Virus record (IMG/VR): IMGVR_UViG_2758568661_000004
Reading direction: 5' to 3' (one strand)
Source: a virus
Taxonomy: Duplodnaviria > Heunggongvirae > Uroviricota > Caudoviricetes
Length of the DNA stretch: 64,000 nt
Shown here: one piece after another, positions 274 through 62,717 of the stretch
Layout: each line of letters starts with the position of its first letter
Numbering within the stretch: position 1 is the first letter of the stretch
The notes under the pieces: generated by a model
Seen by the model: only the letters and a program-made list of their open reading frames with translations
Database searches by the model: none
What the model was told of the DNA's origin: nothing
Program-made: the position numbers and the translations under genes

Positions 274-309
274 GTGTTTCCTTTCCTACCGCATCATGCG
301 CAGGTTCGT

Positions 310-618
310 TCAACCGGCCTTATTTACCCCGTAGGAATCACCGATTTCGAACTCGTGGTACGTCGTCTCGTCGACGTACACCCAGCCGGTGTCCCGGCCG
401 TCATCCAGGTTGAATCTCCACTTCTCGGACACATGCTGCTGAACCGGCATCTGCACGGTGCAGTTCATGTTCTTGTCGTAGGAGTAGCACTGCATGGTTG
501 TGTAGCTGTACGCCGGCTCGTAGTTCTTCCCGGTGACCGTTCCGGCGGAGATTGCGGAACAGCCCGCGAGGATGACAACAGCGGCAGCCACGGTAACAGC
601 GACGAGGATCTTCTTCAT
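310..618 (-). CDS. lipoprotein (signal peptide + LAGC lipobox)
   Basis: ORF track; N-term MKKILVAVTVAAAVVILAGCSA; junction motif 627-637 with 4-codon minicistron ending ATGA on start. Confidence 0.7.
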   Translation of the reverse strand: MKKILVAVTVAAAVVILAGCSAISAGTVTGKNYEPAYSYTTMQCYSYDKNMNCTVQMPVQQHVSEKWRFNLDDGRDTGWVYVDETTYHEFEIGDSYGVNKAG

Positions 619-626
619 GCCACCCT

Positions 627-637
627 CATGCGCAGGA
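627..637 (-). promoter_or_regulatory. class-I junction motif (coding-strand TCCTGCGCATGAGG), representative
   Basis: 2 nt after upstream stop, motif ATG 11 nt before downstream ATG. Confidence 0.6.
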
Positions 638-639
638 GC

Positions 640-889
640 TCAGACGAACTGTCCGACTTTGAGGTTGTTGAACATGCCAGGTGACACGTACCGCCAGCCG
701 ACGCGGCCGCGTTCGTCTCGCACGTCAAGGCGGTACAGGGTGCGGTCGCCGCGCTTCTCGATCGCCTTCACGAGGATGCGGCCGTTACGGGTGAGCGGGA
801 GGCGGTACAGGTAGCCGAGAGCGGCGACGGCAGCTGAGGCGAGGGCAGCGAGGATGAGGGAATTCTTGGGGGTCATATGGGTAGTCATG
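640..889 (-). CDS. small membrane-anchored hypothetical protein
   Basis: ORF track (640..924) trimmed to class-II motif ATG (MTTHMTPKNSLILAALASAAVAALG...); ATGA overlap with upstream stop. Confidence 0.5.
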
Positions 890-1319
890 CGGCGAACATC
901 GGCTGGGCCTGCCGTGCAGACCACCCCCAGAACGCCCGTATCGTCACCATGAGAACCGTGCCGATGATGGCACCGGACGCGTTCATCGCCACATCTTGGA
1001 GGCTGGGGAACCGGTTATGCAGGAACAGCAGCTGCCCCAGTTCCGCCGTCATGGATGCGGCCGCACCGCCTGCCGGTGCAACCCACCACAGGCGGGGCGG
1101 TAGTGATGCGGCGAGCAGGAACCCGACGGGGATGAAGAACATGATGTTCGCGGTCGCCTCCAACTGCGGGTACCCGAACCAGCTGGGAAGCACACCAGCG
1201 TGAGCCCAGGTGAGGGCGTCGGAAATCTGGGTGGAGAACGGGGCGTCAACCGGTCCGGGAGAAGCCACAACTGCGACCCCGAACCCGATGTAGAGGGCGA
1301 GAAGGATCCGGGGAAGCAT
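885..1319 (-). CDS. VanZ-like membrane protein
   Basis: ORF track; multi-TM; SLQDVAMNASGAIIG resembles VanZ family motif. Confidence 0.6.
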   Translation of the reverse strand: MLPRILLALYIGFGVAVVASPGPVDAPFSTQISDALTWAHAGVLPSWFGYPQLEATANIMFFIPVGFLLAASLPPRLWWVAPAGGAAASMTAELGQLLFLHNRFPSLQDVAMNASGAIIGTVLMVTIRAFWGWSARQAQPMFAA

Positions 1320-2522
1320 CAGTACAGGTTCACGCCGCGGGCGCTCATGAACGGTTGCGCGTCGATACGGGAGCCGTCCTGGAACACCTCGAAGTGCAGG
1401 TGGCAGCCGGTGGAAGCGCCGGTTGATCCGACAAGCGCGATGACCTGACCTGCGGTCACCTGCTGGCCGTCGGCCACTTGGATGCCTCCGTCAACGATGT
1501 GGGCGTACCCAGTTTCGAAGTCACCGTGGGAGATCTTCACGAAGTTCCCGTATGTTCCAAGACGTCCAGCCCAGACGACAGTTCCGGTGGCGGCTGCGTA
1601 GATCGGGGAGTTGCAGGACGCGCCGATGTCGGTTCCGTAATGGGTGCCGCCGGAGCATCCACCGGATGAGCAGATGACGGCACGGGGGCCGTACACATCG
1701 GTGATTCCGCCGGCGGCAGGTCGTGCCCAACCGGATGGGCCGACAGCACCGGCTGTGTAGCTACCACCGACACGGGATGGTGTGATGATGGCGCTTCGGT
1801 AGGCGGCAGCTGTTGCAGCCTCCTGGTTGCGGAGGAATGCAACCTTCGCTTCCATCTCGACGATCTTCACCTGCTGGGCGGCGAGGGCAGCGTCCGCTTC
1901 CTGCTGGGCATCTTTCGCGTCATCCAGTTTCGCCTCAGCTTCCTCGCGGAGCTTCTCCCGGGCGCTTTCCGCTGCGTCAGCCTGGCCGGACAGCGATTCG
2001 GACGTGTTCGATGCAACCTCAGCGGCTTCGTACACGGTGGCGGTTGAACTGGTGACTTTGGACATCCGCGCCAGCCTCGACAGCATGTCTTTGGATTTGC
2101 TTTCATCGGAGAGGAACATCTGCACCTGCTGGTCGCCGACGTTCCCGGAACGATACATCTGCGCAGCCATCTGCCCAGCTATTTTCGATGCGTGCTTCGC
2201 TTCCGCCTGAGCTTTGCCAGCCCTCTCGGAGAGGTCGTCCGCGCGTTCGGTGGCGGCATCCAGTTTCTGCTGCGCTTCATCCAGGTCTGCGGCTGCGGAG
2301 TCCGCAACCTTCTGAGCGTTCTTGATGTCGTCGTTCAGTTGGCCGATGGATGCTTCCAGTGAGTCAACCTGCGCTTGGGCGTCGGCGGTGTTCGCTTTCG
2401 CTTTCTCCACATCCGACCAGCTGGGGTTCTCGACAGCGTTTGCGGGTGCTGCGGCAGCACCGATGGCAACGGTCAAGGTGATTGCTGCGGCGGCAAGGGC
2501 GGTACGGAGTGCGGATTTCATA
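1319..2522 (-). CDS. secreted M23 (LytM-type) peptidoglycan metalloendopeptidase with coiled-coil region
   Basis: ORF track trimmed to MKSALRTALAAAAITLTVAIGAAAAPANA signal peptide; long Ala/Glu/Lys-rich coiled coil; C-term GSTGASTGCHLHFEV M23 signature. Confidence 0.85.
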
Positions 2523-2609
2523 GGATTGTGTTTCCGGGTGAGTACGGCGAAGGGGTTACCTGCACAGACATGCGGCAACCCCTCCGATGGAGACGAAATC
2601 GTGTCGGGG

Positions 2610-3833
2610 TCAGCCGACGGTGGAGCCTACGGATGCCATGAACGGCTGCGGGTCAACACGGCTGCCGAACAGGTACACCTCGTAGTGGAGGTGGCATCCG
2701 GTGGAAGCGCCGGTGGACCCGACGAAGCCGATGACATCGCCGGCCTGCACGTACTGACCAAGGCCGACGTTGTATCCGGACAGGTGGGCGTAGCCGGTCT
2801 GGGCGTTGGCGCCGTGGTCGACCATGATGAAGTTGCCGTGGGTGCCGTCGTAGGCGGCGAAGTTGACGGTTCCGGCGTGGGCTGCGAGGACGGGGGTTCC
2901 GCATCCTGCGGCAACGTCGGTGCCCGAGTGGAACCCGGAGGAGCAACCGTCGCCGGCGCAGATGACGGCGCGGGGTCCGTAACCGTCGGAGATCCCACCG
3001 GTAGCGGGGTCAACCCAACGGTTCAGGTAGGCCTGCTCGGCGGCGATGCGTGCAGCTTCAGCCTCAGCAGCCTTGCGGGCTTCCTCAGCCTTGCGGGCTT
3101 CCTCTTCCGCCTTCTTCTGCGCTTCGATGTCGGCGAGGCGCTGCTCCGCGGCGGTCTGCGCCTTCTTCTCAGCCTTGACGGCTTCCTTCTCGAATGCGGT
3201 GGTGTCCTGAGCGTTCTTGTCTTCGAGGAAGTCCAGCTGAGCCTTCAGCTCTGCCGCCTTGACCTCGTGGGCGGCCAGGTCTGCCTCTGCCAGCTTCTGA
3301 ATCTCGGCGGCAGCGGCAAGCTCCTCCTCGGGGGTGAGGGCGGGTTCCGGCTTCGCGGCGGCGCCGTTGGCGATGTCGTTCACAGGTGCCGGTGCTGGTG
3401 CGGCGAGGGCCGGTGCGTCCTTCTGCACGTCCTCGACTGCTGACAGGACAGCCGTGACGGATTCCTTATCTTCGGCCGGGGCGGGTTCCACAACATCACC
3501 GGTGGCTTTCAGGCGGGCGTCCACGAGGGCGGCTGCGGCTGCCTCGGCGTTCTCCCGTGCCTTCTCGACTTCATCGTCGATGTGCTTGAGGCTGGTGACG
3601 ATGACCTTGGCCTGCTTGTGAGCGGTTTCAGGGGCAGCCTTCACAGCGGTCAGGGTTGTCCAGGACGGGTTCTCGCTGACGGTTGCGGTTGTTGCCATGG
3701 CGTTGGCGCTGGCTCCGAACACGGTGGCTGCTGCGATGGATGCTGCGATGATCGTGGTGCGGACTCGGGTTTTGGTGCTGGGGGTCAAAATGGTGGTTCT
3801 CCTTGAGTGGGGCGATTTCTTCGCTATCCCCAT
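2610..3833 (-). CDS. secreted M23 peptidase paralog with coiled-coil region
   Basis: ORF track; start is either motif ATG 3833 (HSRRTTIL possible Tat-like n-region) or TTG ~3788 behind AAGGAG SD; C-term GSTGASTGCHLHYEV. Confidence 0.85.
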   Translation of the reverse strand: MGIAKKSPHSRRTTILTPSTKTRVRTTIIAASIAAATVFGASANAMATTATVSENPSWTTLTAVKAAPETAHKQAKVIVTSLKHIDDEVEKARENAEAAAAALVDARLKATGDVVEPAPAEDKESVTAVLSAVEDVQKDAPALAAPAPAPVNDIANGAAAKPEPALTPEEELAAAAEIQKLAEADLAAHEVKAAELKAQLDFLEDKNAQDTTAFEKEAVKAEKKAQTAAEQRLADIEAQKKAEEEARKAEEARKAAEAEAARIAAEQAYLNRWVDPATGGISDGYGPRAVICAGDGCSSGFHSGTDVAAGCGTPVLAAHAGTVNFAAYDGTHGNFIMVDHGANAQTGYAHLSGYNVGLGQYVQAGDVIGFVGSTGASTGCHLHYEVYLFGSRVDPQPFMASVGSTVG

Positions 3834-3989
3834 GCGCAGGACTGCCCGCTAGAACGCGGAAAGTGCCTTTGGCGCTCTCCTATTTGCCTTTTGACCGGGC
3901 TTTCTAACAGTTCCCTGAATGCCACGCTCAGGCTCTTCGCTCGCTTGATTGACTGTCGAATGGCGCCGATACCCAGCTGCCGGGAACAC

Positions 3990-4538: not shown

Positions 4539-4711
4539 GGTGTGGTGCTCCTCCATAGGGGCGGTGCGGCAGGACGCTGCACCGGCTGGTCACTCACGAC
4601 ATGCGCAGAGGACCGATTCCGGTGAAGGCTTCTAGGAAGTCTGAGGATTGCAACCAAACATCACGCCGGAGGAGACGATTCCGTTGCGGAAACCTCACCC
4701 ATGTACCCCGC

Positions 4712-8158: not shown

Positions 8159-8256
8159 GCTGCGTTAGGCATGCGGCGGTCCGGCCTGGTTGCGTCAGTG
8201 GCGCGGGGTTCGCTGCGTGTCACGCAAAGATTGTGCGGATCGGGTGTGAACGTGTT

Positions 8257-8706: not shown

Positions 8707-8784
8707 GTTCACATCATGCGCAGAACCTATCTGTTTGGAACAACTGCATAGGCCCGCGCCGGTGGTGACCCCCACGAAAATGAT

Positions 8785-8811
8785 GACGCCCCGACAGATT
8801 GCCGGGGCGTC
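8785..8811 (-). terminator. hairpin terminator GACGCCCCG-N9-CGGGGCGTC followed by T-rich tract on minus strand
   Basis: 9-bp perfect stem; ATCATTTTCG follows on minus strand. Confidence 0.5.
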
Positions 8812-8974: not shown

Positions 8975-9175
8975 CTATTCAGCCATGCGGCGAGCTTGCC
9001 GCTGGGCGAGTACTTTGTCCCGGTTCTCCCGGTACCAGGACGGCCACGAGTCCGGGCCGCCTTCCTCCAGTCGCGCGATGGAGTCCTCGAGGACACGGTT
9101 GAACCATGGAAGCTCGTGAACGCTTTCGATGGTCAAGCGCTTCATGGTCTTGATGGCTTCAGCTTCTGTCGGCAT
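8975..9175 (-). CDS. hypothetical small protein
   Basis: ORF track; C-terminus ...RRMAE* is encoded by a class-II motif copy (CGCCGCATGGCTGAATAG). Confidence 0.5.
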   Translation of the reverse strand: MPTEAEAIKTMKRLTIESVHELPWFNRVLEDSIARLEEGGPDSWPSWYRENRDKVLAQRQARRMAE

Positions 9176-10522: not shown

Positions 10523-10544
10523 ATGGGATTCCCATGCGCAGGAT

Positions 10545-10931
10545 TTACAGGCTGGCGGTGATCTTCGCTTCGAAGTAGTCGGCGATACCCACCCAGAACT
10601 CCCCCATGCTGTCGTACTCGCGGGACAGCGGGAAGTCGTCGTGGTGGTGGGCGAGGATGTCGCCGATACCGTCAACGTCCTCAGCGGTGAACTTGCCGTC
10701 GCTGCGCTCGTACGAGGCGATGATCTTGTCGACGTATCGGCGGGCGACCACCACATCGTTCAGACGTGCCACCCATGCCTCGAACACCTCAGCGGACAGG
10801 ACGACAGCTGAAGCGTCTTCACCGGCCGGGCTGGCGAGGATGATGGCGGTGCCGTCCTCGAAGCTCACCTCGACGGTGTCTCCGGTGTGGGTGCCGACGG
10901 CGGCAAGTTCGTGAAGCGGCTGAACGGTCAT
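10545..10931 (-). CDS. acidic hypothetical protein
   Basis: ORF track (10545..11003) trimmed to ATG behind CAGGAGGAC SD (MTVQPLHELAAV); motif-initiated 12-codon uORF ends ATGA on this start. Confidence 0.6.
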   Translation of the reverse strand: MTVQPLHELAAVGTHTGDTVEVSFEDGTAIILASPAGEDASAVVLSAEVFEAWVARLNDVVVARRYVDKIIASYERSDGKFTAEDVDGIGDILAHHHDDFPLSREYDSMGEFWVGIADYFEAKITASL

Positions 10932-10975
10932 TGGTGAGTCCTCCTGTGTTGGTTCGACCTTCTCATGCGCAGGTA

Positions 10976-11959
10976 TCACCGTGCAGGAATGGTGACCGCC
11001 CACACATCCACGTCAGGTCTCGCCCTCAGGAACCGCACCGAATGTCGGAACGACTCCCCTGACCAGGCGATGTCAGCGGACACCTCCACAACCATGGGCT
11101 CGATCAGGGTGAGGTGGATGGCGTCTTTCATAGTCGAGAAATGGCTTATTGCTCCGGGCTTCACCACTGGAGGCCACGGGTGCGCGGCCAATGGTGGGAG
11201 CAGCAGCGGCGCCAACTGCCTCACCTGCACTGGGGATAGAGGTGAGCTTCTCCCCGCAATGCGAAGCTTCCCGTTCACCCGGAAACCCACCACCAGCTCC
11301 TGCGGACGGTCTCGCGTCCCGATGACCGCCCCGGCGATCGTGTCGATGGTGTCCCGATGTTTCACCTTCACCCATTCGCGGCGGCCGCCGCTATAGGCGC
11401 CGTCCAACGCTTTGATGACCAGACCTTCCACTCCGACACTGTGTAAAGCGCCCATCCATTGGGCGGCTTCATTCGGGTCGCGGGTGGCGGAGTTCACGGA
11501 CAGCGGCGGCAGCCATCCTTTCCCGAGTTCCTCCAGCAGTTCCCGACGGACACGAAGTAACTGCCGGCGGATGTCATGGCGTGGGATGGCTAGGAGGTCG
11601 AACGCAGCGAACGATGCAGGCTCCTGCCTGGACAGCTCCCCGGCGCTGCGTTCACCTCGAGCCATCCGTCTTTGCATCGCGTCGAAACTGAGCCGCCCTC
11701 CCGACCAGATGACCGTCTCCCCGTCAACCACGCATCCGTCCGGGATCATCCGGGCTGCGGCGTTCACAATTTCCGGGAACAGCTGTGTGAGCTCCTTCTT
11801 CTGCCTCGACCACAGTCTGGTGTCACCGTCCCGGACGATGACGGTGCGGAACCCATCCAGTTTCGGTTCCGCTTGGGCGTCAACCAGACTTGGGATGGTC
11901 GCGGCTGGTCGGGCGAGCGCTACGTCCACGGGGACAGTGAACGTTTCCGGCAGCGCCAT
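10976..11959 (-). CDS. ATP-dependent DNA ligase (LigC/LigD ligase-domain-like)
   Basis: ORF track; motif I EPKLDGFR (KxDGxR), EGLVIK, WVKVK. Confidence 0.8.
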   Translation of the reverse strand: MALPETFTVPVDVALARPAATIPSLVDAQAEPKLDGFRTVIVRDGDTRLWSRQKKELTQLFPEIVNAAARMIPDGCVVDGETVIWSGGRLSFDAMQRRMARGERSAGELSRQEPASFAAFDLLAIPRHDIRRQLLRVRRELLEELGKGWLPPLSVNSATRDPNEAAQWMGALHSVGVEGLVIKALDGAYSGGRREWVKVKHRDTIDTIAGAVIGTRDRPQELVVGFRVNGKLRIAGRSSPLSPVQVRQLAPLLLPPLAAHPWPPVVKPGAISHFSTMKDAIHLTLIEPMVVEVSADIAWSGESFRHSVRFLRARPDVDVWAVTIPAR

Positions 11960-44508: not shown

Positions 44509-44516
44509 GCGGCGAC

Positions 44517-46556: not shown

Positions 46557-46599
46557 GTCATGCTCCCCTCCGGTACTGAGGGAGTCATGCGGCGACAGG

Positions 46600-46982: not shown

Positions 46983-47183
46983 TCAGGCACCTTCCCCATG
47001 CGCAGGATCACGTTTCGCGCGTCGTTTCTCCTCCCGACGCCATTGCCGGGTTTTCGATCGTTCATGCCAGGAGATGAACGAGTCGACGATCCCGTGGAAG
47101 ATGAGTTCGATGAAAAGGTCGACGATCAGCCAGCGGAACACCCAGAAGATGCCTCGGAATAGTGCTTCAAGCAGGTCGGACAT
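46983..47183 (-). CDS. small membrane protein
   Basis: ORF track; C-terminal ...DPAHGEGA* encoded by a class-I motif. Confidence 0.5.
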   Translation of the reverse strand: MSDLLEALFRGIFWVFRWLIVDLFIELIFHGIVDSFISWHERSKTRQWRREEKRRAKRDPAHGEGA

Positions 47184-47246
47184 GGGTTCGCTTCCGGGTC
47201 GGGGTTGACGGCCGATGTTCAGGCATGCGGCGCATAGCCGACTGGT

Positions 47247-47720: not shown

Positions 47721-47782
47721 TGTGAATCCTTCATATTGATGGTCGATTTCTAACGTCTCATGCGCAGGAGCGACAGGCGAGA

Positions 47783-48854: not shown

Positions 48855-48874
48855 GCCTGGATCATGCGCAGGAA

Positions 48875-49156
48875 TCAGGCGGCGGCTTTCTCCGACAAGA
48901 CCACGGACGAGATGGTGTTCGCCCCGTCGTACATCCAGTTCTTCGCCCAGATGAAGTCGATGACCAGTTCACTGTCATGCGGGAGTCTGACTTCGTGAAG
49001 GGTGACTGTCTGACCGGGTGCCGGCTCGACAGTGTCGAAGGATGAGTCAGCGGTTGTGCGGCGGGTGTACGTGTCAGCACGGCGAACCTGCCCGTCGTCG
49101 TACACAATCACCCACGCCCGCATTGTTCGGGCGACTATGCGGCGTTCCATCCCCAT
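48875..49156 (-). CDS. hypothetical protein
   Basis: ORF track. Confidence 0.5.
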   Translation of the reverse strand: MGMERRIVARTMRAWVIVYDDGQVRRADTYTRRTTADSSFDTVEPAPGQTVTLHEVRLPHDSELVIDFIWAKNWMYDGANTISSVVLSEKAAA

Positions 49157-50144: not shown

Positions 50145-50192
50145 GCGTTGTTTCCTTGCGGTCGGTGATGTTCACCACACCCATGCGCAGAG

Positions 50193-50684
50193 TCAACGGA
50201 TACGCGGACCGAACGGGTACTGCCCTTTCTTGATCATCCTCGTGATGTCAGCACCGGAGTACGGCCCGCCGGGGCTGGGTTCACGGCGTTGGTCGGCGAT
50301 GCGTTGCATCTGACCGAGTTCACGCAGCACCAACTGCTCCGCGGGTGCATCCTTGAACCCGGTGTCCTCCACCGGGCGGCCGTGACGGATGATGACCACC
50401 TTGAACTGTTCTGCTCTGTTCACGGTGACTTCGACGCGGTCACGGTCCTGCGCCCAACTGATGGTGGCGCCGCCGGCACCGTCGGACAGGATTTCCGGGT
50501 TCGGCACCGGGCCACGCTGAGCGCGAGCCAGCACCCGATCCAGTTTCATTGCCACCGGCGCTGAGATGCCGAGGTCCGGGTTGTCGTCGTACCGTCCGGT
50601 CAGTGCACGGACCTGATATTCGGGGCGGATGTTCGTCGGCAACCTGGCTCCTCTTCCTGTTGCAGGTGTCATGCGCAGCAACAC
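50193..50684 (-). CDS. hypothetical protein
   Basis: ORF track; start ambiguous (GTG 50684, motif ATG 50672 or later TTG). Confidence 0.5.
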   Translation of the reverse strand: MLLRMTPATGRGARLPTNIRPEYQVRALTGRYDDNPDLGISAPVAMKLDRVLARAQRGPVPNPEILSDGAGGATISWAQDRDRVEVTVNRAEQFKVVIIRHGRPVEDTGFKDAPAEQLVLRELGQMQRIADQRREPSPGGPYSGADITRMIKKGQYPFGPRIR

Positions 50685-53356: not shown

Positions 53357-53493
53357 GGCGACTTCCTCCTTTCTTATTGGGGTTGTGTGCCCGTGCGGGC
53401 GTGGGTGCTGCTGGTTTTGGGGCTGCCGGTGGGCAGCGTGGACGCCGGGGTTAGACGGTGTTCATCTGACCCATGCGCAGAATCTGCGGAAGG

Positions 53494-54989: not shown

Positions 54990-55016
54990 GGGATGGTCAT
55001 GCGCAGGAACTCTTGC

Positions 55017-55418
55017 CTAGCCGACGTCGACTGCCGGCCGGTCGTTCAGGACACTCATCACACGCTCGTACACGAGGTCGCACACCCCGTCCGGGACGTT
55101 ATGAAGGTACCGGGTCGGTTTGCCGACACTGTTGCATTCCACCAGCTGCGCCACCCATCGGATGGGTGTGGCGATGCTCTCCACCGTCCATGACCGGTTG
55201 TTGAACGCCTTGTCAGCCGTGCCGGGCTTCGTCCCGTTCAGCTCCACCAGATAGTGGCCGGGAACATCCGGGTTGTCGGTCGTCAGCAGAAGCCTGGCGA
55301 TCTCCTCGGCGAGGTCGTGGGTGGGGGTGTTCACATCCAGGTTGGATGAACGGATCTTGTTCAAGTTCACGGCGGGTGTCTCCTCTATGCGGTCGTGCTC
55401 AGAGGAGGCATGCGGCAA
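55017..55418 (-). CDS. hypothetical protein
   Basis: ORF track; TTG within class-II motif or GTG ~55365 behind GAGGAG. Confidence 0.5.
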   Translation of the reverse strand: MPHASSEHDRIEETPAVNLNKIRSSNLDVNTPTHDLAEEIARLLLTTDNPDVPGHYLVELNGTKPGTADKAFNNRSWTVESIATPIRWVAQLVECNSVGKPTRYLHNVPDGVCDLVYERVMSVLNDRPAVDVG

Positions 55419-55428: not shown

Positions 55429-56544
55429 TCAGCTGTTCGGCTGCGATGCAGCCTCAGGCTCGCCGCCCGTGGCCTCGGGTTCCGGATCTGGTTCAGTGTC
55501 CGTGCCCGCCAGATGCCGGGTGACCACGTTCACGACCGCGGCTGCTGGAACGGCGAACAGCGCGCCGGGGATCCCAGCGACGATGCTTCCGATGGCCACG
55601 GCGAGGACAACAGCCAACGGGTGGACGTTCACAGCGCTGCCCATCACCAACGGTTGCAGCAGGTGGCCTTCGATCTGCTGGACGGCGATGATGACCACCA
55701 GCATCCACACGGCAACCCACGGCCCGCAGTACAGCAGGGCGAGGAGGACGGCGGCTGTCCCGGCGACGAGCGCACCGACCACGGGGATGAACGCTCCAAG
55801 GAACACGAGGATGGCGATCGGTACAGCCATCGGCACCCCGAGGAGGAACGCTCCCAACCCGATACCGAAAGCGTCGAAGCCGGCGACCAGGACTTGGATT
55901 CGAGCGAAGCTGGACAGGGTCGTCCATGCGGCCTGCCCTGCGCCGTCAGCTTTCTCGCGTGCAGCTTTCGGGAACAGGCTGACCGTCCACGACCAGATGC
56001 GTGGACCGTCGATGAGGATGAACAGGAGGGTGAAGAACGCCAACGCCACACCGACACCCGCATGCCCGACACCGGATCCGATGGATACCGCGCCGTCCAG
56101 CAGGGCGCTGGAATCTGATTGCAGCTTCGTGACAGCGGAGTCGACGTACCCGTTGATCTCCTTGTCGGTGAGGCCGAGCGGGGAGTCGTGAAGGAACACC
56201 TTCACCCCATCCCAGAACTCGACGGCACGGCCGGCGACATCACGGGAGCCCTGGATGATCTGGATGACCGCGACGGTGAGCAGCCCACCGATGAGAGCGA
56301 CCGTTCCGACGAGGGTGGTGGTGATCGCCAACCATGTCGGCCACCGTTTGCTGCGAAGGTATCCGACTGCGGGGACGAGAAGGGATCCGAGGAGGATGGC
56401 GATGAGGACGGGGATGACGATTTCGGAGAGTTTCGACACTCCCCACATGGCAGCTGCCGCGGCGGCGACAATCACCAGGATCCGCCACGCCCATGACGCA
56501 GCAGCTTGCACTGGTGTGGGGACGGGGTGGATGTTGTCGGTCAT
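55429..56544 (-). CDS. AI-2E family transporter (PerM/UPF0118-like permease)
   Basis: ORF track; ~8 TM helices; typical AI-2E length and hydrophobic pattern. Confidence 0.75.
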   Translation of the reverse strand: MTDNIHPVPTPVQAAASWAWRILVIVAAAAAAMWGVSKLSEIVIPVLIAILLGSLLVPAVGYLRSKRWPTWLAITTTLVGTVALIGGLLTVAVIQIIQGSRDVAGRAVEFWDGVKVFLHDSPLGLTDKEINGYVDSAVTKLQSDSSALLDGAVSIGSGVGHAGVGVALAFFTLLFILIDGPRIWSWTVSLFPKAAREKADGAGQAAWTTLSSFARIQVLVAGFDAFGIGLGAFLLGVPMAVPIAILVFLGAFIPVVGALVAGTAAVLLALLYCGPWVAVWMLVVIIAVQQIEGHLLQPLVMGSAVNVHPLAVVLAVAIGSIVAGIPGALFAVPAAAVVNVVTRHLAGTDTEPDPEPEATGGEPEAASQPNS

Positions 56545-56569
56545 GCCGGTGAGGCATGCGGCGGGATGG

Positions 56570-57921: not shown

Positions 57922-57968
57922 CGGGGTGGTGCTCCTCGGTTGCTGTGGTTACTGGGTTGCCATGCGCA

Positions 57969-58113
57969 GGTTCACCCGAACGCAGGCTGGGCTGCGGCGC
58001 ACGAACGGCAGAAGACGATGAAGTTGTACGGGTTGTCGGCGACCTGTCTTGCTTCTGCTGCGGTGAGTTTCCGGAGGACGGTGCCGCAGTCCTGGCAGTC
58101 GAGGGTGGGTTCG
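57969..58113 (-). CDS. zinc-ribbon mini-protein (~48 aa, below ORF-track cutoff)
   Basis: MSFHEPTLDCQDCGTVLRKLTAAEARQVADNPYNFIVFCRSCAAAQPAFG; ATGA overlap with 58121..58339 stop; class-I motif right after its stop. Confidence 0.35.
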
Positions 58114-58600: not shown

Positions 58601-58758
58601 ATGGTGGTCATGCGCAGGGTTGACGCCCATCCAACCGGATTACATCGTTACACCTTGATTACCGCTTCGCTGTAACAGGCTTTTTCCCGGTCAGCGCTTT
58701 GTTTTTAGGCTCGTTACATCCGTTACACTTCATAGGTGCATGTATATGGGAGGAAGAT

Positions 58759-59410: not shown

Positions 59411-59451
59411 GGGTGAGCCTTCCTTCGTTGTCACATGGTTCATGCGCAGAG

Positions 59452-59775
59452 TCAGTTGAAGACCATCACACGTTTACAGGAACCGCACAACCGGTAGTTG
59501 GGGTCGGTACGTCGTCCGCAGTTCGGGCAGGTCACCCTCTGAGGGAGGTTGCGGATGACCGCCCAGATGATCAGACCGACAACTCCGATGACAGCGACCG
59601 GGATGAGGATCCAGAGGAACTGGCCGACAGCACCCCAGAAGTCACCGTGCTCCCACTCCTTGGCGACAGCTTCCCACCAAGCCTGGAACGCCAGCATCAC
59701 CCCGAAAAACGCGGCGATGCCGATCAACGCCACCCCGGAACAACCGATCCCAGACTTCTTCGTGCTCGTAGCCAC
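59452..59775 (-). CDS. membrane protein with C-terminal zinc ribbon
   Basis: ORF track; two TM helices; CPNCGRRTDPNYRLCGSC; GTTGAC half-site 10 nt upstream of start. Confidence 0.55.
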   Translation of the reverse strand: MATSTKKSGIGCSGVALIGIAAFFGVMLAFQAWWEAVAKEWEHGDFWGAVGQFLWILIPVAVIGVVGLIIWAVIRNLPQRVTCPNCGRRTDPNYRLCGSCKRVMVFN

Positions 59776-60957: not shown

Positions 60958-60974
60958 CACATCATGCGCAGAGT

Positions 60975-61577
60975 TCACGCCATTCCGCGTGCAGTTTGGG
61001 CGATGCCGACAAACAAATACAGGACACCCAGCACCAACCCGACGATCGGCATCCACCGACCCTTCTGCCCGGGCGTGAACTTCGACAGCCCAATCCCGGA
61101 GAACACGATAGCGCTGAGCGTCACAGGCACCCCGATGATCAGCGGGATGAACGCGAAGATGGACACGATGCCGAGGATGAACCCGGTGGTGGCGAACCCG
61201 TTCGACGTGGTCTGCGTGGTCTTGATCGCAGGCGGTCCAGGTGACGGCCGCTGCGACCCTGTGTAGCCGTTTGCCGGTGCTAGCCGTGCCGGTGACGGTG
61301 ATGTGCTCGGCGGCTGCTTCTTGGTGAGTGCCGTCGAGGCGGTCGACTGCTGCCTGCCCTCTGATGCCGTCATCGGCAGCGGATGCGGTTTTGGCAGGTT
61401 CTGCGCAACTGCGGTTGGCGTGTTCTCCGTCACCCATTGCTGATACCGGCGATGCAGCGCCGCAGGATCCGCCGCCAACGCATTCGCGAAGTCGTCGGTG
61501 GCGCTGACATCAATCCGTTTCCTACCCTCCGGGGTGGCGAAGTGAAACGACCATTGCGCAAAGTCGAGCTCAGCCAA
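60975..61577 (-). CDS. membrane protein with Pro/Ser-rich linker
   Basis: ORF track; C-terminal TM helices. Confidence 0.55.
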   Translation of the reverse strand: MAELDFAQWSFHFATPEGRKRIDVSATDDFANALAADPAALHRRYQQWVTENTPTAVAQNLPKPHPLPMTASEGRQQSTASTALTKKQPPSTSPSPARLAPANGYTGSQRPSPGPPAIKTTQTTSNGFATTGFILGIVSIFAFIPLIIGVPVTLSAIVFSGIGLSKFTPGQKGRWMPIVGLVLGVLYLFVGIAQTARGMA

Positions 61578-61634
61578 CCTGTCCTCCTGACGGTCCTGAT
61601 GCGTTGAGTGTACCGACGCGGGTCACTAGGCGAT

Positions 61635-62489
61635 TCAGCCAGCTGCGGCTGCCTCGAATGTGAACGCACCGGTCTTGTCAGTGATGGTCACCGTGACATT
61701 CGCGGTGCTGCTGTCTGACCCTGTAGCCACACAGGTGTACACAGCACCGGCAGTGAAACCGATGTGTTCCGGGCAGGTGACGTCGGTGACGGTGACCGTT
61801 GAACCGGCAGCGACCAGCTGGGCGGTGTACTCAGTTGAGATTTGAGATTCCACGTTCTCCGACTGGGCTGTCTCGAGGACACTGCTGTCTCCGGTGACCC
61901 CGCCGGCGAGCCCGAGAGTGAACCCGAGGATGAACGGGATGAGTGCGAGTGCGGCGACGATGATGGAGATGATCCCGAGGGCTTTACCTCCGCGATGGCG
62001 TCGTTTCAAGCCGATGGACCCGAGGATAATGGCGGTGACAGCACCGATGGCGGGGATGGGTGCGTCACCGGACATGATGGCGCCGAGCAACGCGACGCCG
62101 GCGAGGATGGCTGAGCTGATGATCAGGCTGCCGCGCTTCCGCTGGCGTTCTTCCTTCCATGGCGAGCTGACCGGGGCGTTCACCGCTGCGTTGACCTGTG
62201 CAGGAGTCCACCCCTGCGTGGGCTGATGCTGCGGGGCAGGCGGGATAGCGGTGCCACCAGGCTGCTGAGGGGCACTGAACGCCGGTGCTGCTGAAGGTGC
62301 AACCAGAACCGGTTGGGCGTACGCCTGCTGCTGTGGGGCGTACTGCACGGCAGGTGTCACCGGAGGTGCTGTGATCGACACAGCCTCACGGGTGTGCGTC
62401 GACCATGATCCGTCCCACCAGCGGAGCATGTCCGGTCCAGTCGGGTCAGCTTCCGGGTCGGGGTACCAGCCGGGCTTCGGTGCGTTCAA
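61635..62489 (-). CDS. DUF2510-like membrane protein
   Basis: ORF track; N-terminal GWYPDPEADPTGPDMLRWWDGSWS; Pro-rich linker, central TM; TTG start behind GAAGGAG. Confidence 0.6.
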   Translation of the reverse strand: MNAPKPGWYPDPEADPTGPDMLRWWDGSWSTHTREAVSITAPPVTPAVQYAPQQQAYAQPVLVAPSAAPAFSAPQQPGGTAIPPAPQHQPTQGWTPAQVNAAVNAPVSSPWKEERQRKRGSLIISSAILAGVALLGAIMSGDAPIPAIGAVTAIILGSIGLKRRHRGGKALGIISIIVAALALIPFILGFTLGLAGGVTGDSSVLETAQSENVESQISTEYTAQLVAAGSTVTVTDVTCPEHIGFTAGAVYTCVATGSDSSTANVTVTITDKTGAFTFEAAAAG

Positions 62490-62607
62490 CAGTGGGCTCC
62501 TTCAAGGGTGGTTCGCCCATGCGGGGCGGTGACGCCGGACGGGCGCGAACACCACGGTAGGGGGTCCGTGAACGTGCCGGAGAAAACGCCACAGTGTTCG
62601 GCTGTTC

Positions 62608-62628
62608 CTGCGCATGGGAGATGCGCAG
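62608..62628. promoter_or_regulatory. head-to-head junction-motif palindrome CTGCGCAT-N5-ATGCGCAG in the divergent intergenic region
   Basis: Perfect 8-bp arms; only place where both motif orientations meet; lies between the minus-strand 61635..62489 and plus-strand 62718..63452 genes. Confidence 0.6.
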
Positions 62629-62717
62629 CCCTGCACTCGGTGCGGCGCGCCTCGAATTTTGGAGACCCCTTCATGAACACACCCACCGCTGCCGTACGGA
62701 CAGAGAGCGAGTAGCCG

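What the first reader, a model, noticed from the sequence alone, without database searches (positions are those of the whole stretch)
294..62630. Pervasive orientation-locked ~13-bp gene-junction element (over 50 copies) in two sequence classes
The plus-strand 9-mer CATGCGCAG occurs about 33 times. Core start positions: 295, 627, 3831, 4600, 8715, 10533, 10964, 24037, 24630, 28504, 32649, 34756, 37696, 38494, 39389, 40843, 41250, 41664, 44232, 45172, 45926, 46997, 47759, 48324, 48863, 50182, 50670, 53472, 54998, 57961, 58609, 59441, 60963. The variant CATGCGGC occurs about 21 times: 887, 2569, 8170, 8984, 16836, 21323, 22180, 22468, 27522, 30033, 30793, 31637, 33989, 37884, 39815, 43387, 44506, 46587, 47224, 55410, 56555. 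Read on the coding (minus) strand, class I is YTCCTGCGCATGR and class II is CGCCGCATG(T/A/C)C(T/C). Almost every copy sits in a gene junction: 0-15 nt after the upstream stop, or overlapping the last codons, and 8-70 nt before the next start. The orientation follows gene direction and flips only where genes flip (62605, 63652). After the two strong terminators at 8785 and 34775, the motif sits on the promoter-proximal side of the next gene. My rough expectation for a 9-mer of this composition in 64 kb of ~63%-GC DNA is under one copy per strand (an estimate, not a computed statistic). This is not an uptake-sequence or restriction-site pattern, because those are orientation-neutral; it behaves like a start- or junction-associated sequence. 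It could be a promoter, an RNA-processing site or a translational element, and 13 bp with over 50 copies fits no family I can name. Cluster-K mycobacteriophage SAS elements are conceptually similar but far fewer and of different sequence.
Basis: seen in the sequence. Interest (0 to 1): 0.9.

Follow-up and report, generated by a model that had tools for sequence, protein, structure and literature searches.

The report
Plasmid-specific compact promoters before nearly every gene
A 12-13 bp sequence in two versions sits in almost every gap between genes of this actinobacterial plasmid-like element, always pointing with the genes and at a fixed distance from start codons that lack a ribosome-binding site; it is most likely a new, plasmid-family-specific type of promoter whose recognition factor is still unknown.

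Summary
CATGCGCAG occurs 33 times on the plus strand and 2 on the minus (0.8 expected). CATGCGGC occurs 22 times on the plus strand and 0 on the minus (5 expected; 19 are robust copies). Intergenic DNA is 7% of the gene array, yet 52 of 55 copies lie at gene junctions, and nearly every true intergenic gap holds one. On the coding strand class I is (G)TTCCTGCGCATGR and class II is TCGCCGCATGyCT. Both share CGCATG, and there is no -35 box.

A pyrimidine-purine step follows at a fixed distance. At about 19 sites that purine begins an ATG/GTG start codon with no Shine-Dalgarno sequence. Most other sites have 17-107 nt leaders with one. Related Microbacteriaceae plasmids carry the same elements at the same spacing: Curtobacterium pS16 (103 copies of TCCGCGCATAG), pCPAA3, a Glaciihabitans plasmid (class II) and a Leifsonia contig. 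Annotated start codons in pS16 and the Glaciihabitans plasmid confirm the spacing. Flagellar and metabolic blocks on those plasmids lack the elements.

Best reading (about 0.7): compact -10-type promoters that are not the housekeeping TANNNT type, many giving leaderless mRNAs. No sigma factor or RNA polymerase gene was found. No transcript data exist, and the host chromosome could not be tested.

The parts
294..307 (-). class I element GAACCTGCGCATGA; predicted TSS 286; leadered (ATG 272, SD GGAAAGGA)
626..639 (-). class I; predicted TSS 618 = ATG of gene 310-618 (leaderless, no SD)
3830..3843 (-). class I; predicted TSS 3822; leadered (M23 peptidase gene, start 3788, SD AAGGAGA)
4599..4612 (-). 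class I; predicted TSS 4591; leadered (start 4556 or 4538)
8714..8727 (-). class I; predicted TSS 8706 = ATG (leaderless); first element after terminator 8785-8811
10532..10545 (-). class I; predicted TSS 10524 = ATG of gene 10363-10524 (leaderless)
10963..10976 (-). class I; predicted TSS 10955; leadered (ATG 10931, SD AGGAGGA)
24036..24049 (-). class I; predicted TSS 24028; leadered (TTG 24011, SD GAGAGGAA)
24629..24642 (-). class I; predicted TSS 24621; leadered (start 24579)
28503..28516 (-). class I; predicted TSS 28495; leadered (ATG 28470); upstream gene's TGA stop lies inside the motif
32648..32661 (-). class I; predicted TSS 32640; leadered (ATG 32608, SD GGAGA)
34755..34768 (-). class I; predicted TSS 34747; leadered (ATG 34687); directly after strong terminator 34771-34804
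37695..37708 (-). class I; predicted TSS 37687; leadered (ATG 37660, SD GGAGGA)
38493..38506 (-). class I; predicted TSS 38485 = ATG of gene 38195-38485 (leaderless)
39388..39401 (-). class I; predicted TSS 39380; leadered (ATG 39360, SD GAGGGAG)
40842..40855 (-). class I; predicted TSS 40834 = GTG of ORF 40451-40834 (leaderless; the gene caller chose ATG 40813)
41249..41262 (-). class I; predicted TSS 41241 = ATG of gene 40855-41241 (leaderless)
41663..41676 (-). class I; predicted TSS 41655; leadered (GTG 41638 or ATG 41596)
44231..44244 (-). class I; predicted TSS 44223; leadered (sortase gene, TTG 44196)
45171..45184 (-). class I; predicted TSS 45163; leadered (ATG 45130 or 45121); upstream TGA stop lies inside the motif
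45925..45938 (-). class I; predicted TSS 45917; leadered (TTG 45899, SD GAAGGAGG)
46996..47009 (-). class I; predicted TSS 46988; leadered (start 46884, or a small ORF)
47758..47771 (-). class I; predicted TSS 47750; leadered (GTG 47720, SD GAAGGA)
48323..48336 (-). class I; predicted TSS 48315 = ATG of gene 47887-48315 (leaderless); the motif overlaps the end of the upstream gene
48862..48875 (-). class I; predicted TSS 48854 = ATG of gene 48312-48854 (leaderless)
50181..50194 (-). class I; predicted TSS 50173; leadered (ATG 50144, SD AAGGAAA)
50669..50682 (-). class I (GTTGCTGCGCATGA); predicted TSS 50661; leadered (TTG 50642, SD GGAAGAGGAG)
53471..53484 (-). class I; predicted TSS 53463; long leader to the flotillin gene (TTG 53356, SD AAGGAGGAA)
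54997..55010 (-). class I; predicted TSS 54989 = ATG of gene 54609-54989 (leaderless)
57960..57973 (-). class I; predicted TSS 57952; leadered (ATG 57921, SD GAGGAG)
58608..58621 (-). class I (AACCCTGCGCATGA); predicted TSS 58600 = ATG (leaderless candidate; the gene caller chose 58630, upstream of the motif)
59440..59453 (-). class I; predicted TSS 59432; leadered (ATG 59410, SD GAAGGAAGG)
60962..60975 (-). class I; predicted TSS 60954 = ATG (leaderless candidate; the gene caller chose GTG 60978)
62604..62617 (+). class I copy flipped with the gene direction; predicted TSS about 62625; plus-strand gene starts at 62718
63650..63663 (+). class I copy flipped with the gene direction; predicted TSS about 63671; plus-strand gene starts at about 63752
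883..895 (-). class II element TCGCCGCATGACT; ATG at +15 (876), leaderless candidate
2566..2578 (-). class II; leadered (M23 peptidase gene, ATG 2521)
8167..8179 (-). class II; ATG at +17 = 8158, start of the 1148-aa Ig/metalloprotease protein (leaderless)
8981..8993 (-). class II (TCGCCGCATGGCT); downstream unit unclear (small ORF 8830-9096)
16833..16845 (-). class II; ATG at +16 = 16825, start of the 1604-aa Ig-repeat protein (leaderless)
21320..21332 (-). class II; ATG at +16 = 21312, start of the 1466-aa Ig-repeat protein (leaderless)
22177..22189 (-). class II; leadered (Dam-type methylase gene, GTG 22140, SD GGAGAGA)
22465..22477 (-). class II; ATG at +15 (22458), leaderless candidate (DUF4190 gene)
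27519..27531 (-). class II; start uncertain (motif ATG 27524, or GTG at +36/+42 after GAAGGA)
30030..30042 (-). class II; GTG at +15 (30023), in frame with the gene; leaderless candidate
33986..33998 (-). class II; leadered (ATG 33939, SD GGAGA)
37880..37892 (-). class II; ATG at +16 = 37872 (leaderless candidate)
39811..39823 (-). class II; ATG at +16 = 39803, start of gene 39402-39803 (leaderless)
43384..43396 (-). class II; leadered (pilin-like 494-aa protein, ATG 43327)
44503..44515 (-). class II; leadered (GTG 44472, SD GAGGAG)
46583..46595 (-). class II; leadered (ATG 46556, SD GGAGGGGAG)
47221..47233 (-). class II; leadered (ATG 47183)
55406..55418 (-). class II; leadered (GTG 55370, SD GAGGAGA)
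56552..56564 (-). class II; ATG at +16 = 56544, start of the AI-2E transporter gene (leaderless)
30790..30802 (-). GCCGCATG without the nCT tail, inside or at the edge of an ORF; probably a chance match, not counted
31634..31646 (-). GCCGCATG whose ATG is the start codon of a translationally coupled gene; no nCT tail; probably a chance match
55922..55934 (-). GGCCGCATGGAC, 502 nt inside the AI-2E gene; a chance match
34771..34804 (-). strong intrinsic terminator (15-bp stem, T-tract), followed on the coding strand by the class I element at 34755-34768
8785..8811 (-). intrinsic terminator hairpin GACGCCCCG-N9-CGGGGCGTC plus ATCATTTTC, upstream of the class I element at 8714-8727

Best explanation
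The two motif classes are the core (-10-region) elements of compact promoters with no -35 box. They belong to a family of Microbacteriaceae megaplasmids. The window is part of such an element; at least 83 kb of it was seen.

Proposed mechanism: RNA polymerase, directed by a specificity factor that is not the housekeeping sigma, binds (G)TTCCTGCGCATGR (class I) or TCGCCGCATGyCT (class II). It starts transcription at a purine 8 nt (class I) or 9-11 nt (class II) downstream of CATG. This places the invariant A of CATG at -11 in class I.

Almost every true intergenic gap carries one such promoter. The genes in between overlap by 4 bp and are translationally coupled. Terminators are rare, so transcripts should form nested, read-through sets. 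At about 19 of the 54 robust promoters the first transcribed base is the A or G of the start codon, giving leaderless mRNAs. Most of the others give 17-107 nt leaders with a normal Shine-Dalgarno sequence.

Class II drives the large surface and transfer-type genes (three giant Ig-repeat proteins, a pilin-like adhesin, an M23 hydrolase, Dam, AI-2E). Class I drives mostly small genes of unknown function. This suggests two co-ordinately controlled regulons.

Shown here: sequence, counts, strand lock, junction location, spacing, the SD dichotomy, and conservation in relatives.
Inferred: that the site is a promoter, the exact TSS, and the existence of a dedicated factor.
For: 1. Enrichment and strand lock: 33 plus / 2 minus and 22 plus / 0 minus, against 0.8 and 5 expected.
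2. Location: 52 of 55 copies lie at junctions that make up 7% of the array. There is one motif per real gap, and motif-less genes overlap their upstream neighbour.
3. Logo: no information upstream of -7 from CGCATG. A pyrimidine is at +13 in 29 of 33 sites and a purine at +14 in 32 of 33. This matches the -1/+1 preference at mapped actinobacterial TSSs and their lack of a -35 box (PMC3898074).
4. ATG/GTG lies exactly at +14 in 11 of 33 class I sites (0.93 expected) and at +15 to +17 in 10 of 22 class II sites (0.62 expected per offset).
5. Using independent gene calls, 1 of 12 leaderless starts has an SD core, against 23 of 29 leadered starts (background 9%).
6. Conservation with the same geometry. 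pS16 has 103 TCCGCGCATAG sites, with ATG/GTG at GCGCAT+9 in 45 and at +10 in 7, Y at -1 in 85 and R at +1 in 95 of 103. About 15 of 26 plus-strand sites coincide with PGAP start codons. pCPAA3 has 21 copies on the coding strand and 0 on the other. The Glaciihabitans plasmid has 11 class II sites, all on the coding strand of its backbone block, and 4 of 7 checked sites have the PGAP start at +16. Leifsonia carries variants.
7. The motif is absent from the flagellar cluster of pS16, from the 98-kb accessory part of the Glaciihabitans plasmid and from an unrelated Streptomyces plasmid.
8. Sigma70-type promoters are not enriched (1 found, 2 expected), and only one strong terminator lies on the coding strand in 20 kb, followed at once by a motif.
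9. No RNA structure (z-scores -1.3 to +1.8) and no Rfam family.
10. pS16 has a weak element 17 nt upstream of GCGCAT (C at -33 in 79 of 103 sites). That is a sigma70-family spacer length.
Against: - There are no transcript 5'-end data for any of these replicons, so the TSS is inferred from start codons and a Y/R step.
- No cognate sigma factor or RNA polymerase was found in the window or its flanks, on the fully annotated Glaciihabitans plasmid, or on pS16 beyond its flagellar-cluster sigma.
- The host chromosome could not be examined, so a host regulon with the same motif is not excluded.
- The -10 region lacks the T at -12 and the T at -7 of housekeeping promoters, so the assignment rests on analogy with alternative-sigma promoters recalled from general knowledge.
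- The class II offset is 1-3 nt longer than the class I offset, and this is unexplained.
- Leadered class I sites show a conserved TGA(A/C)C at the predicted start. This is more specific than a simple Y/R rule.
- About one promoter per 1.1 kb with almost no terminators is unusual for a plasmid.
Confidence: 0.7

Rival explanations
1. RNA-processing site. Long polycistronic transcripts are cut by an element- or host-encoded endoribonuclease that recognises the motif in RNA and cleaves 8-11 nt downstream. This produces monocistronic mRNAs, some with 5'-AUG ends.
For: - Strand lock and junction location fit equally well.
- Terminators and sigma70-type promoters are scarce, so long primary transcripts are plausible.
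- No sigma factor was found.
- These plasmids encode many RNA-repair and RNA-processing proteins, including RtcB, RNA ligase, PIN, HEPN and HipA.
Against: - Cleavage at a fixed distance downstream of an unstructured 12-nt sequence is not how known sequence-specific endoribonucleases work. There is no conserved fold around the motif and no Rfam family.
- This model would still need promoters upstream of each array, and none is evident.
- A motif follows each strong terminator directly, where a new start rather than a cut is needed.
- The Y(-1)/R(+1) step and an A at -11 are initiation signatures.
Confidence: 0.1
2. Stoperator-like silencing sites. An element-encoded monomeric repressor binds the asymmetric 13-bp sites in every junction and blocks initiation or elongation in an orientation-dependent way, as in cluster A mycobacteriophages.
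For: Like stoperators, these are 13-bp asymmetric sites, present in more than 20 copies, lying in short intergenic spaces, with orientation correlated to transcription (PMC9283540; window data). Several small HTH proteins are encoded and shared with pS16.
Against: - Stoperators are not reported to have a fixed register with start codons. Here the register is exact to the nucleotide in about 35-50% of sites across four replicons.
- Roadblock sites give no reason for the SD-less starts.
- Two sequence classes would require two repressors.
- No homologue of a cluster A-type repressor was detected by Pfam or PHROG scans of the window proteins.
- The two roles are not exclusive: a promoter could also be an operator.
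Confidence: 0.1
3. Translational element. The motif is an alternative ribosome-binding or coupling signal, for example through the mini-ORF ATG-N9-TGA that overlaps the ATGA start in class I leaderless sites.
For: - The motif lies 8-10 nt before SD-less start codons in about 19 sites.
- In class I leaderless sites the motif's ATG is in frame with a TGA that overlaps the gene's ATGA (seen in the sequence).
Against: - In most sites the start codon is 30-120 nt from CGCATG and has its own SD.
- In leadered sites the TGA is out of frame with the motif's ATG.
- pS16 has CATA instead of CATG, so there is no ATG in the motif, yet the spacing is the same.
- The motif's ATG is in frame with the downstream gene about as often as chance predicts (12 of 55).
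Confidence: 0.03
4. Polar DNA-handling signal. On this reading the motif is a KOPS/SRS-like guide for the plasmid's FtsK/SpoIIIE translocases, a Chi-like site or a priming site, and its strand bias reflects the direction of replication or transfer rather than transcription.
For: - The plasmid family encodes giant FtsK/SpoIIIE proteins.
Against: - Such motifs are scattered through coding sequence. Here 52 of 55 copies lie in the 7% of the array that is junction DNA.
- The orientation flips locally with single genes and small gene blocks, not with replichores.
- The exact register with start codons is unexplained by this model.
Confidence: 0.03

Closest known systems
Actinobacterial leaderless-gene promoters recognised by the housekeeping sigma (TANNNT -10, no conserved -35; M. 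tuberculosis TSS map, PMC3898074)
   Same: The architecture is the same: a -10-region element only, no -35, a purine at +1 and a pyrimidine at -1, and a large fraction of transcripts starting at the A or G of the start codon without an SD (one search compared).
   Different: The sequence is not TANNNT. Position -12 is an invariant C, and -7 is T in only 7 of 33 window class I sites and 3 of 103 pS16 sites. Conservation extends upstream to about -21, giving 12-13 nearly invariant bases. That is far more stringent than host promoters. The motif is also confined to one plasmid family.
Cluster A mycobacteriophage stoperators (L5 gp71-type repressor sites; PMC9283540)
   Same: Both are 13-bp asymmetric sites present in tens of copies, lying in short intergenic spaces, with orientation locked to the direction of transcription.
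   Different: The stoperator description gives no fixed distance to start codons or to a Y/R step. Stoperators act by repression and share sequence with a true operator at an early promoter. Here the register with SD-less start codons is exact, there are two classes, and no such repressor was found.
Plasmid-specific 34-bp promoter motif of the Bifidobacterium breve megaplasmid pMP7017 (PMC10832533)
   Same: Both are on an actinobacterial conjugative megaplasmid. Both are repeated motifs overlapping the -10 region of many plasmid promoters, present in related plasmids, and in pMP7017 absent from host chromosomes.
   Different: The pMP7017 motif contains a canonical TATACT -10 box and is read as a transcription-factor site laid over ordinary promoters. 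It has 19 copies for 56 genes on 190 kb. Here there are 54 robust copies on 64 kb, no canonical -10 box, and no sequence similarity to the pMP7017 motif.
Phage middle/late promoters read by phage-encoded sigma-like factors, e.g. T4 late promoters (TATAAATA at -10, no -35, gp55). This comparison is from general knowledge and was not tested here.
   Same: Both are short, highly conserved elements confined to the -10 region, repeated in front of many transcription units of one replicon and unlike host promoters. Both imply a replicon-specific specificity factor and co-ordinated control.
   Different: The replicon here is a plasmid family with RepA/ParA, Tad-type and FtsK-type transfer genes, not a phage. 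The sequence is GC-rich. No gp55-like or other sigma-like gene has been identified.
Cluster K mycobacteriophage start-associated sequences (SAS).
   Same: Both are 13-bp, orientation-locked, repeated just upstream of gene starts in an actinobacterial mobile element.
   Different: As I recall it, SAS contains the ribosome-binding site and lies a few bases before each associated start codon. The present motif has no SD-like core, and in most copies it lies 30-120 nt upstream of a start codon that has its own SD.

Membership tests
Housekeeping (sigma A / sigma70 group 1) promoter | -10 hexamer TANNNT, with T at -12, A at -11 and T at -7 | tested here: not met
   A at -11 is met (33/33; 103/103). 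Position -12 is an invariant C. Position -7 is T in 7 of 33 class I sites and 3 of 103 pS16 sites.
Housekeeping (sigma A / sigma70 group 1) promoter | TTGACA-like -35 box, 16-18 bp upstream of the -10 box | tested here: not met
   There is no information above background upstream of the motif in either class. The consensus scan finds 1 site in 20 kb against 2 expected. Actinobacterial promoters often lack a -35 box anyway.
Bacterial promoter in general (any sigma) | Fixed distance from the conserved element to a purine start site preceded by a pyrimidine | tested here: met
   Y at -1 in 29 of 33 and R at +1 in 32 of 33 window class I sites. In pS16, 85 and 95 of 103.
Bacterial promoter in general (any sigma) | Primary (5'-triphosphate) transcript ends at the predicted position | not testable with these tools
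   No transcriptome data exist for these replicons, and no TSS map of any Microbacteriaceae was found in the library.
Alternative-sigma or phage-type sigma promoter regulon | A cognate sigma or sigma-like factor encoded by the element or the host | tested here: inconclusive
   No sigma or RNAP domain was found in the window or flanks. None is annotated on the Glaciihabitans plasmid. pS16 has only its flagellar-cluster sigma. There is no paralogue by phmmer and no RNAP catalytic motif. The rest of the element and the host genome were not available.
Alternative-sigma or phage-type sigma promoter regulon | The motif is confined to a defined gene set and absent from unrelated genes on the same replicon | tested here: met
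   The motif is absent from the pS16 flagellar cluster and from the 98-kb accessory part of the Glaciihabitans plasmid. It is also absent from an unrelated Streptomyces plasmid.
Leaderless mRNA genes | The start codon coincides with the transcript start, and there is no SD upstream | tested here: met
   ATG/GTG peaks at +14 and at +15 to +17. An SD core is present in 1 of 12 leaderless genes against 23 of 29 leadered genes. PGAP and gene-caller starts coincide with the predicted positions. The 5' end itself is inferred.
Cluster A stoperators | 13-bp asymmetric sites, more than 20 per genome, in short intergenic spaces, with orientation correlated to transcription (PMC9283540) | tested here: met
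   definition
Cluster A stoperators | A cognate immunity repressor (HTH plus stoperator domain), with the same site acting as operator at an early promoter | tested here: inconclusive
   No such protein was recognised by Pfam or PHROG scans of the window proteins. Small HTH proteins are present. Binding cannot be tested here.
Cluster K SAS | The motif contains the ribosome-binding site and lies immediately upstream of each associated start codon (from general knowledge) | tested here: not met
   The motif has no SD-like core. Most copies lie 30-120 nt upstream of a start codon that has a separate SD.
Structured cis-regulatory RNA or known RNA family | A conserved secondary structure or an Rfam match | tested here: not met
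   0 Rfam matches at gathering score. Fold z-scores range from -1.3 to +1.8 with no common structure.
Polar DNA motifs (KOPS/SRS/Chi-like) | Distributed along the replicon, including coding sequence, with strand bias following replication or translocation direction | tested here: not met
   52 of 55 copies lie in junctions. The strand flips with individual gene blocks.

The most novel reading that the evidence does not exclude
Microbacteriaceae megaplasmids carry their own orthogonal transcription system. On this reading, one or more unrecognised, element-encoded specificity factors (sigma-like or otherwise) would exist, at least two in this element, matching classes I and II. They would redirect host RNA polymerase to 12-13 bp promoters with no -35 box, placed in front of nearly every transcription unit. 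Hundreds of plasmid genes, many expressed as leaderless mRNAs, would then switch on and off as phage-like regulons, for example on entry into a new host or during transfer. The factor would define a new family, because no known sigma or RNAP domain is detectable on two fully sequenced members.
Probability: 0.35. Interest if true: 0.85.

Novelty: new variant of a known kind. Interest (0 to 1): 0.68.

Why it matters
If these are promoters, three things follow.

1. A whole family of large actinobacterial plasmids (148-567 kb for the sequenced members, in Curtobacterium, Glaciihabitans and this element's host; related motifs also lie on a 701-kb Leifsonia contig) expresses most of its largely uncharacterised gene load through its own stringent promoter code rather than host-type promoters. 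That implies a master regulator able to switch hundreds of genes together. It would be a plasmid counterpart of phage temporal control.

2. The motif is a practical annotation tool. It marks transcription-unit boundaries and fixes start codons, including leaderless ones, to the nucleotide in replicons where about 80% of genes are 'hypothetical'.

3. The motif provides compact 13-bp, probably orthogonal promoter parts for high-GC Gram-positive hosts, and a direct handle for fishing out the unknown recognition factor by DNA-affinity capture with the 13-mer.

If the sites instead prove to be processing or roadblock sites, a sequence-specific system acting at more than 50 junctions would be equally unreported for plasmids.

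Tried and rejected
- Phage origin. Megablast of 24 kb against 50,697 phage records found nothing. PHROG hits to the giant proteins are only Ig domains. Relatives carry RepA/ParA and Tad- and FtsK-type genes. The element is a plasmid-type element.
- Close relatives. Plasmid megablast found none. The DUF4192 protein has no relatives in the species-representative genomes. It has one 34% homologue among 5.8 billion proteins, in an unrelated chromosomal context.
- Mini-ORF or translational coupling through the motif's ATG. Rejected because the frame is inconsistent and pS16 has CATA.
- A -35 element in the window. None was found. The enriched upstream words are upstream stop codons.
- A third motif class in the few motif-less gaps. 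None was found; some gaps have sigma A-like -10 boxes.
- Degenerate copies. Allowing up to 3 mismatches adds few junction sites.
- Known RNA family or structure. None.
- Trans-factor. Pfam scans of about 95 window proteins (and precomputed hits), the full annotation of two relatives, phmmer with the pS16 sigma, Pfam on ten large hypothetical proteins and an RNAP catalytic-motif search were all negative.
- Literature. The motif strings give only chance primer or aptamer hits. No Microbacteriaceae TSS map was found.
- The second strand-locked repeat in pS16 (CACGGAGAC) is a coding tandem repeat.
- Host chromosome test.

Full report
**1.

CATGCGCAG occurs 33 times on the plus strand and twice on the minus strand. 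Dinucleotide-preserving shuffles give 0.81 +/- 0.93, with a largest value of 5. CATGCGGC occurs 22 times on the plus strand and never on the minus strand, against 5.0 +/- 2.2 expected. Five class II coordinates are off by one, and one copy (55925) was missed.

Nearly all genes lie on the minus strand, so the motifs read on the coding strand as follows:
- Class I: (G)(T)T(C/T)CTGCGCATG(A/G)
- Class II: (T)(C)GCCGCATGnCT

Both classes share the hexamer CGCATG. That hexamer occurs 77 times on the coding strand and 8 times on the other. The 22 copies that belong to neither class behave as background, with only 2 intergenic. If the nCT tail is required, 19 class II copies are robust. The copies at 30793, 31637 and 55925 look like chance matches.

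**2. Where the copies sit**

I used gene calls made independently of the motif (the Logan assembly's calls), plus a few of my own ORFs for the stretch those calls do not cover.
- Intergenic DNA is 7.0% of the 62-kb co-directional array.
- 40 of 55 copies are fully intergenic, and 12 more lie within 25 nt of a gene boundary.
- Of the three 'internal' copies, two depend on start-codon choice and one is the chance match at 55925.

The relation also runs the other way:
- Genes with no motif upstream almost all abut or overlap the preceding gene. The gap is <=3 nt in 38 of 47, mostly 4-bp ATGA/GTGA overlaps.
- Genes with a motif have real gaps, >=6 nt in 42 of 49.

So essentially every true intergenic gap holds exactly one copy. 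In 7 cases the upstream gene's TGA stop is the TGA inside CATGA.

The two copies on the other strand (62608, 63654) precede plus-strand genes. In the flanks recovered from the source assembly the motif continues and flips with the genes.

**3. Anatomy downstream of the motif**

In what follows, offsets written as +n count from the C of CGCATG, taken as 0. Positions written as -n, such as -11 or -33, are relative to the predicted transcription start.

There is no information upstream of about -7 from CGCATG, so there is no -35 box. Downstream, class I has a pyrimidine at +13 in 29 of 33 sites and a purine at +14 in 32 of 33.

Start codons pile up at precise offsets:
- ATG/GTG at +14 in 11 of 33 class I sites, against 0.93 expected.
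- ATG/GTG at +15 to +17 in 10 of 22 class II sites, against 0.62 expected per offset.

These starts have no Shine-Dalgarno sequence, because the motif occupies that space. With the independent gene calls, 1 of 12 genes that start at the predicted position has an SD core. Among genes that start 25 nt or more from the C of CGCATG, 23 of 29 have one. The background in random 13-mers is 9%. Predicted leaders are 17-107 nt, with a median near 30.

If the purine at +14 is the first transcribed base, the invariant A of CATG lies at -11. A second peak of RTG at +12 (8 sites) belongs to a conserved TGA(A/C)C at the predicted start of leadered class I sites. It is mostly out of frame with the gene, and I cannot fully explain it.

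**4. What the replicon is**

There is no nucleotide match in the phage or plasmid collections, and there are no tRNA genes. The window encodes:
- a sortase;
- three giant Ig-repeat/reprolysin-like proteins;
- two M23 peptidases;
- a Dam-type methylase and an ATP-dependent DNA ligase;
- a SprT-like protein, DUF4192, a flotillin, an AI-2E transporter and a SocA-like antitoxin.

Most small proteins have no family.

The source is an isolate-type assembly (SRR7126390). With its flanks the element is at least 83 kb. Its best protein relatives are on three Curtobacterium megaplasmids: a UvrD-like helicase at 40-42% identity and the SprT-like protein at 24-29%. About 15-20 proteins are shared with pS16 at 30-47% identity.

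pS16 is a circular 546-kb plasmid. It carries RepA/ParA, Tad-type ATPases, prepilin peptidases, FtsK/SpoIIIE proteins, a T4SS coupling protein, a flagellar cluster, many phage-like nucleotide and RNA-repair genes, and long co-directional runs of small hypothetical genes. The window therefore belongs to a large plasmid-type element of a Microbacteriaceae-like host.

**5. Comparative evidence, the strongest part**

A de novo k-mer search found that relatives carry the same kind of element.

*pS16.* It has TCC-GCGCATAG(G/A), sharing the GCGCAT core with class I. Over the 509 kb loaded there are 103 copies, and 100 have CC just upstream. An ATG/GTG lies exactly 9 nt after GCGCAT in 45 copies and 10 nt after in 7, and 50 of these open ORFs of >=40 codons. 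A pyrimidine is at -1 in 85 copies and a purine at +1 in 95. The strand follows the local gene direction, and the flagellar cluster has essentially none. GCGCAT+9 is the same distance as class I's CATG+8. I checked the 26 plus-strand sites in the part loaded first against the PGAP table by hand. About 15 coincide exactly with annotated start codons, for example 7962 to 7977, 116855 to 116870 and 246346 to 246361 (sbcD).

*pCPAA3 (C. pusillum).* The same motif occurs 21 times on the coding strand and 0 times on the other in 40 kb.

*The 148.8-kb Glaciihabitans plasmid.* It has CGCCGCATGTCT, which is the window's class II. There are 11 full copies, all on the coding strand of the 50-kb backbone block and none in the 98 kb of sugar-metabolism and IS-rich DNA. 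In 4 of 7 sites checked, the PGAP start lies 16 nt after the C of CGCATG, which is the class II offset. This plasmid has no class I copies, and pS16 has no class II copies.

*A 701-kb Leifsonia contig.* It carries TTCCTGCGCATGA and GTCCGCGCATGTAGG variants. It also carries a different junction element, GCCACACACCTA-N6-7-ATG.

*A Streptomyces plasmid.* It shares only the helicase and has none of the motifs.

So the motif and its register with start codons are conserved across replicons whose shared proteins are 25-45% identical. Start-codon annotations made without knowledge of the motif confirm that register.

**6. Mechanism**

The simplest account of all of this is a compact promoter. It would explain the strand lock, one copy per real gap, the position directly after the two strong terminators, the exact distance to a Y/R step and to SD-less start codons, the normal SD on the remaining genes, the absence of RNA structure or an Rfam family, and the lack of ordinary sigma70-type promoters.

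The architecture matches what TSS mapping found in M. tuberculosis: a -10-region element only, no -35 box, a purine at +1, a pyrimidine at -1 and many leaderless transcripts (PMC3898074). The sequence, however, is not the housekeeping TANNNT. Position -12 is an invariant C, and -7 is T in only 7 of 33 window sites and 3 of 103 pS16 sites. Conservation also extends over 12-13 bases.

From general knowledge, a GC-rich block ending in CAT at -12 to -10 recalls the composite -10 elements of alternative sigma factors (sigma32 CCCCAT, sigmaB/F GGGTAT). A -10-only promoter repeated across one replicon recalls T4 late promoters. These are analogies, not tests. pS16 also shows a weak upstream element: C at -33 in 79 of 103 sites, with CGCAC ending at -33 in 11 sites against 0.65 expected. 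It lies 17 nt upstream of GCGCAT, a sigma70-family spacer length. The window has no equivalent.

Class II precedes the three giant surface proteins, the pilin-like adhesin, an M23 hydrolase, Dam and AI-2E. In Glaciihabitans it is confined to the transfer/backbone block. Class I precedes mostly small unknown genes. This suggests two regulons.

**7. What is missing**

I could not find the factor that reads the motif.
- No sigma or RNAP domain is present in the window or flanks.
- None is annotated on the Glaciihabitans plasmid.
- pS16 has only its flagellar-cluster sigma, plus WhiB, TraR/DksA and Lsr2 proteins.
- That sigma has no paralogue in any of these replicons.
- Ten large hypothetical proteins have no Pfam family.
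- No long ORF carries an RNAP catalytic motif.

The rest of this element and the host chromosome were not available, so a host-encoded alternative sigma remains possible. There are no transcript data. I put the promoter reading at about 0.7.

**8. Rivals**

- *RNA processing (0.1).* It fits the strand lock and location. It would need cleavage at a fixed distance from an unstructured sequence, and it still lacks upstream promoters.
- *Stoperator-like repressor sites (0.1).* They share the 13-bp asymmetric, intergenic, orientation-locked pattern (PMC9283540). They do not explain the nucleotide-exact register with SD-less start codons. A promoter could also serve as an operator.
- *Translational element (0.03).* Most copies lie far upstream of starts that have their own SD. 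The pS16 version has no ATG in the motif yet keeps the spacing.
- *Polar DNA signals for the FtsK-type translocases (0.03).* They would not be confined to junctions, and they would not flip with single genes.

**9. Novelty**

No paper in the library holds these sequences in a relevant context. The nearest published analogue is the plasmid-specific 34-bp motif overlapping the -10 box of 19 promoters on Bifidobacterium pMP7017 (PMC10832533). That motif contains a canonical TATACT and is read as a regulator site.

I rate this finding a new variant of a known kind. It is a new, very stringent promoter-like code specific to one plasmid family, with unusually dense use (about one per 1.1 kb) and a high share of leaderless genes. 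The more novel reading is an unrecognised, plasmid-encoded specificity factor that gives these megaplasmids a phage-like orthogonal transcription programme. The evidence does not exclude it, and I give it about 0.35.

Noticed in passing
window 41843-43327 (-); L003 18873-20348 (-): Two large proteins begin with a type-IV-pilin-like N-terminal helix (AIDLASIMVGVLVIG..VPW.QD.AAK). The same domain heads RCC1 and BspA-type surface proteins on the Glaciihabitans plasmid, a pS16 protein, and loci in Leifsonia and Frigoribacterium. The related plasmids encode prepilin peptidases and Tad-type ATPases, so these may be pilin-anchored adhesins of the transfer apparatus.
   Followed up: partly
window 4712-8158, 12011-16825, 16912-21312 (-); sortase at 43432-44196 (-): Three giant proteins of 1148-1604 aa carry reprolysin-like metalloprotease and many Ig-like repeats. 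The repeats produce over-represented 9-mers such as TACCAGTGG (19 copies). Each gene is preceded by a class II element with a leaderless start. A sortase is encoded nearby.
   Followed up: partly
window 58000-62000: This region has a lower GC content (0.595-0.617 against about 0.63). Several of its intergenic gaps lack the motif and carry sigma A-like -10 boxes instead, for example TACACT upstream of the gene starting at 61577. It may be a differently regulated or separately acquired module.
   Followed up: no
L025 (Leifsonia sp. Leaf264 contig_3, 583583-603999): A different strand-locked junction element, GCCACACACCTA-N6-7-ATG, occurs 6 times in 20 kb with 0 copies on the other strand. It again abuts SD-less start codons, so the plasmid family seems to use several such codes.
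   Followed up: partly
pS16 (NZ_CP126255.1), all 103 motif sites: A weak upstream element is present: C at -33 in 79 of 103 sites, with CGCAC ending at -33 in 11 sites against 0.65 expected. It lies 17 nt upstream of GCGCAT. The window has no equivalent.
   Followed up: partly
window, leadered class I sites, offsets +12 to +17 from the C of CGCATG: A conserved (R/C)TGA(A/C)C lies at the predicted transcript start: TG at -1/+1 in 11 of 22 sites and RTG at +12 in 8 sites. It is mostly out of frame with the gene. It may be an initial-transcribed-sequence preference or a relic of leaderless starts.
   Followed up: partly
pS16 (NZ_CP126255.1), whole record: This 546-kb plasmid combines RepA/ParA, Tad, FtsK and T4SS coupling-protein genes and a complete flagellar cluster with many phage-like genes: LigA, Tdk, Tmk, Dut, NrdHIEF, ThyA, DHFR, DnaE, SmpB, Pth, RtcB, RNA ligase and Thg1. 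The stretch at 479-493 kb has few protein-coding genes in the PLSDB table; since that table omits RNA genes, it may hold RNA genes, but this was not checked.
   Followed up: no
window 36621-37313 (-); L003 14600-16038 (+): Toxin-antitoxin and defence-type genes lie inside the array: a SocA/Panacea-domain protein and a RES-domain pair that is also present on pS16 and the Glaciihabitans plasmid.
   Followed up: no
L026 (NZ_CP194644.1, 'Streptomyces sp. L7' chromosome, 4.27 Mb): A pilin-like domain relative and three GCGCATAG copies lie on a chromosome that is small for a Streptomyces. This may be an integrated relative of the plasmid family or a mislabelled organism.
   Followed up: no
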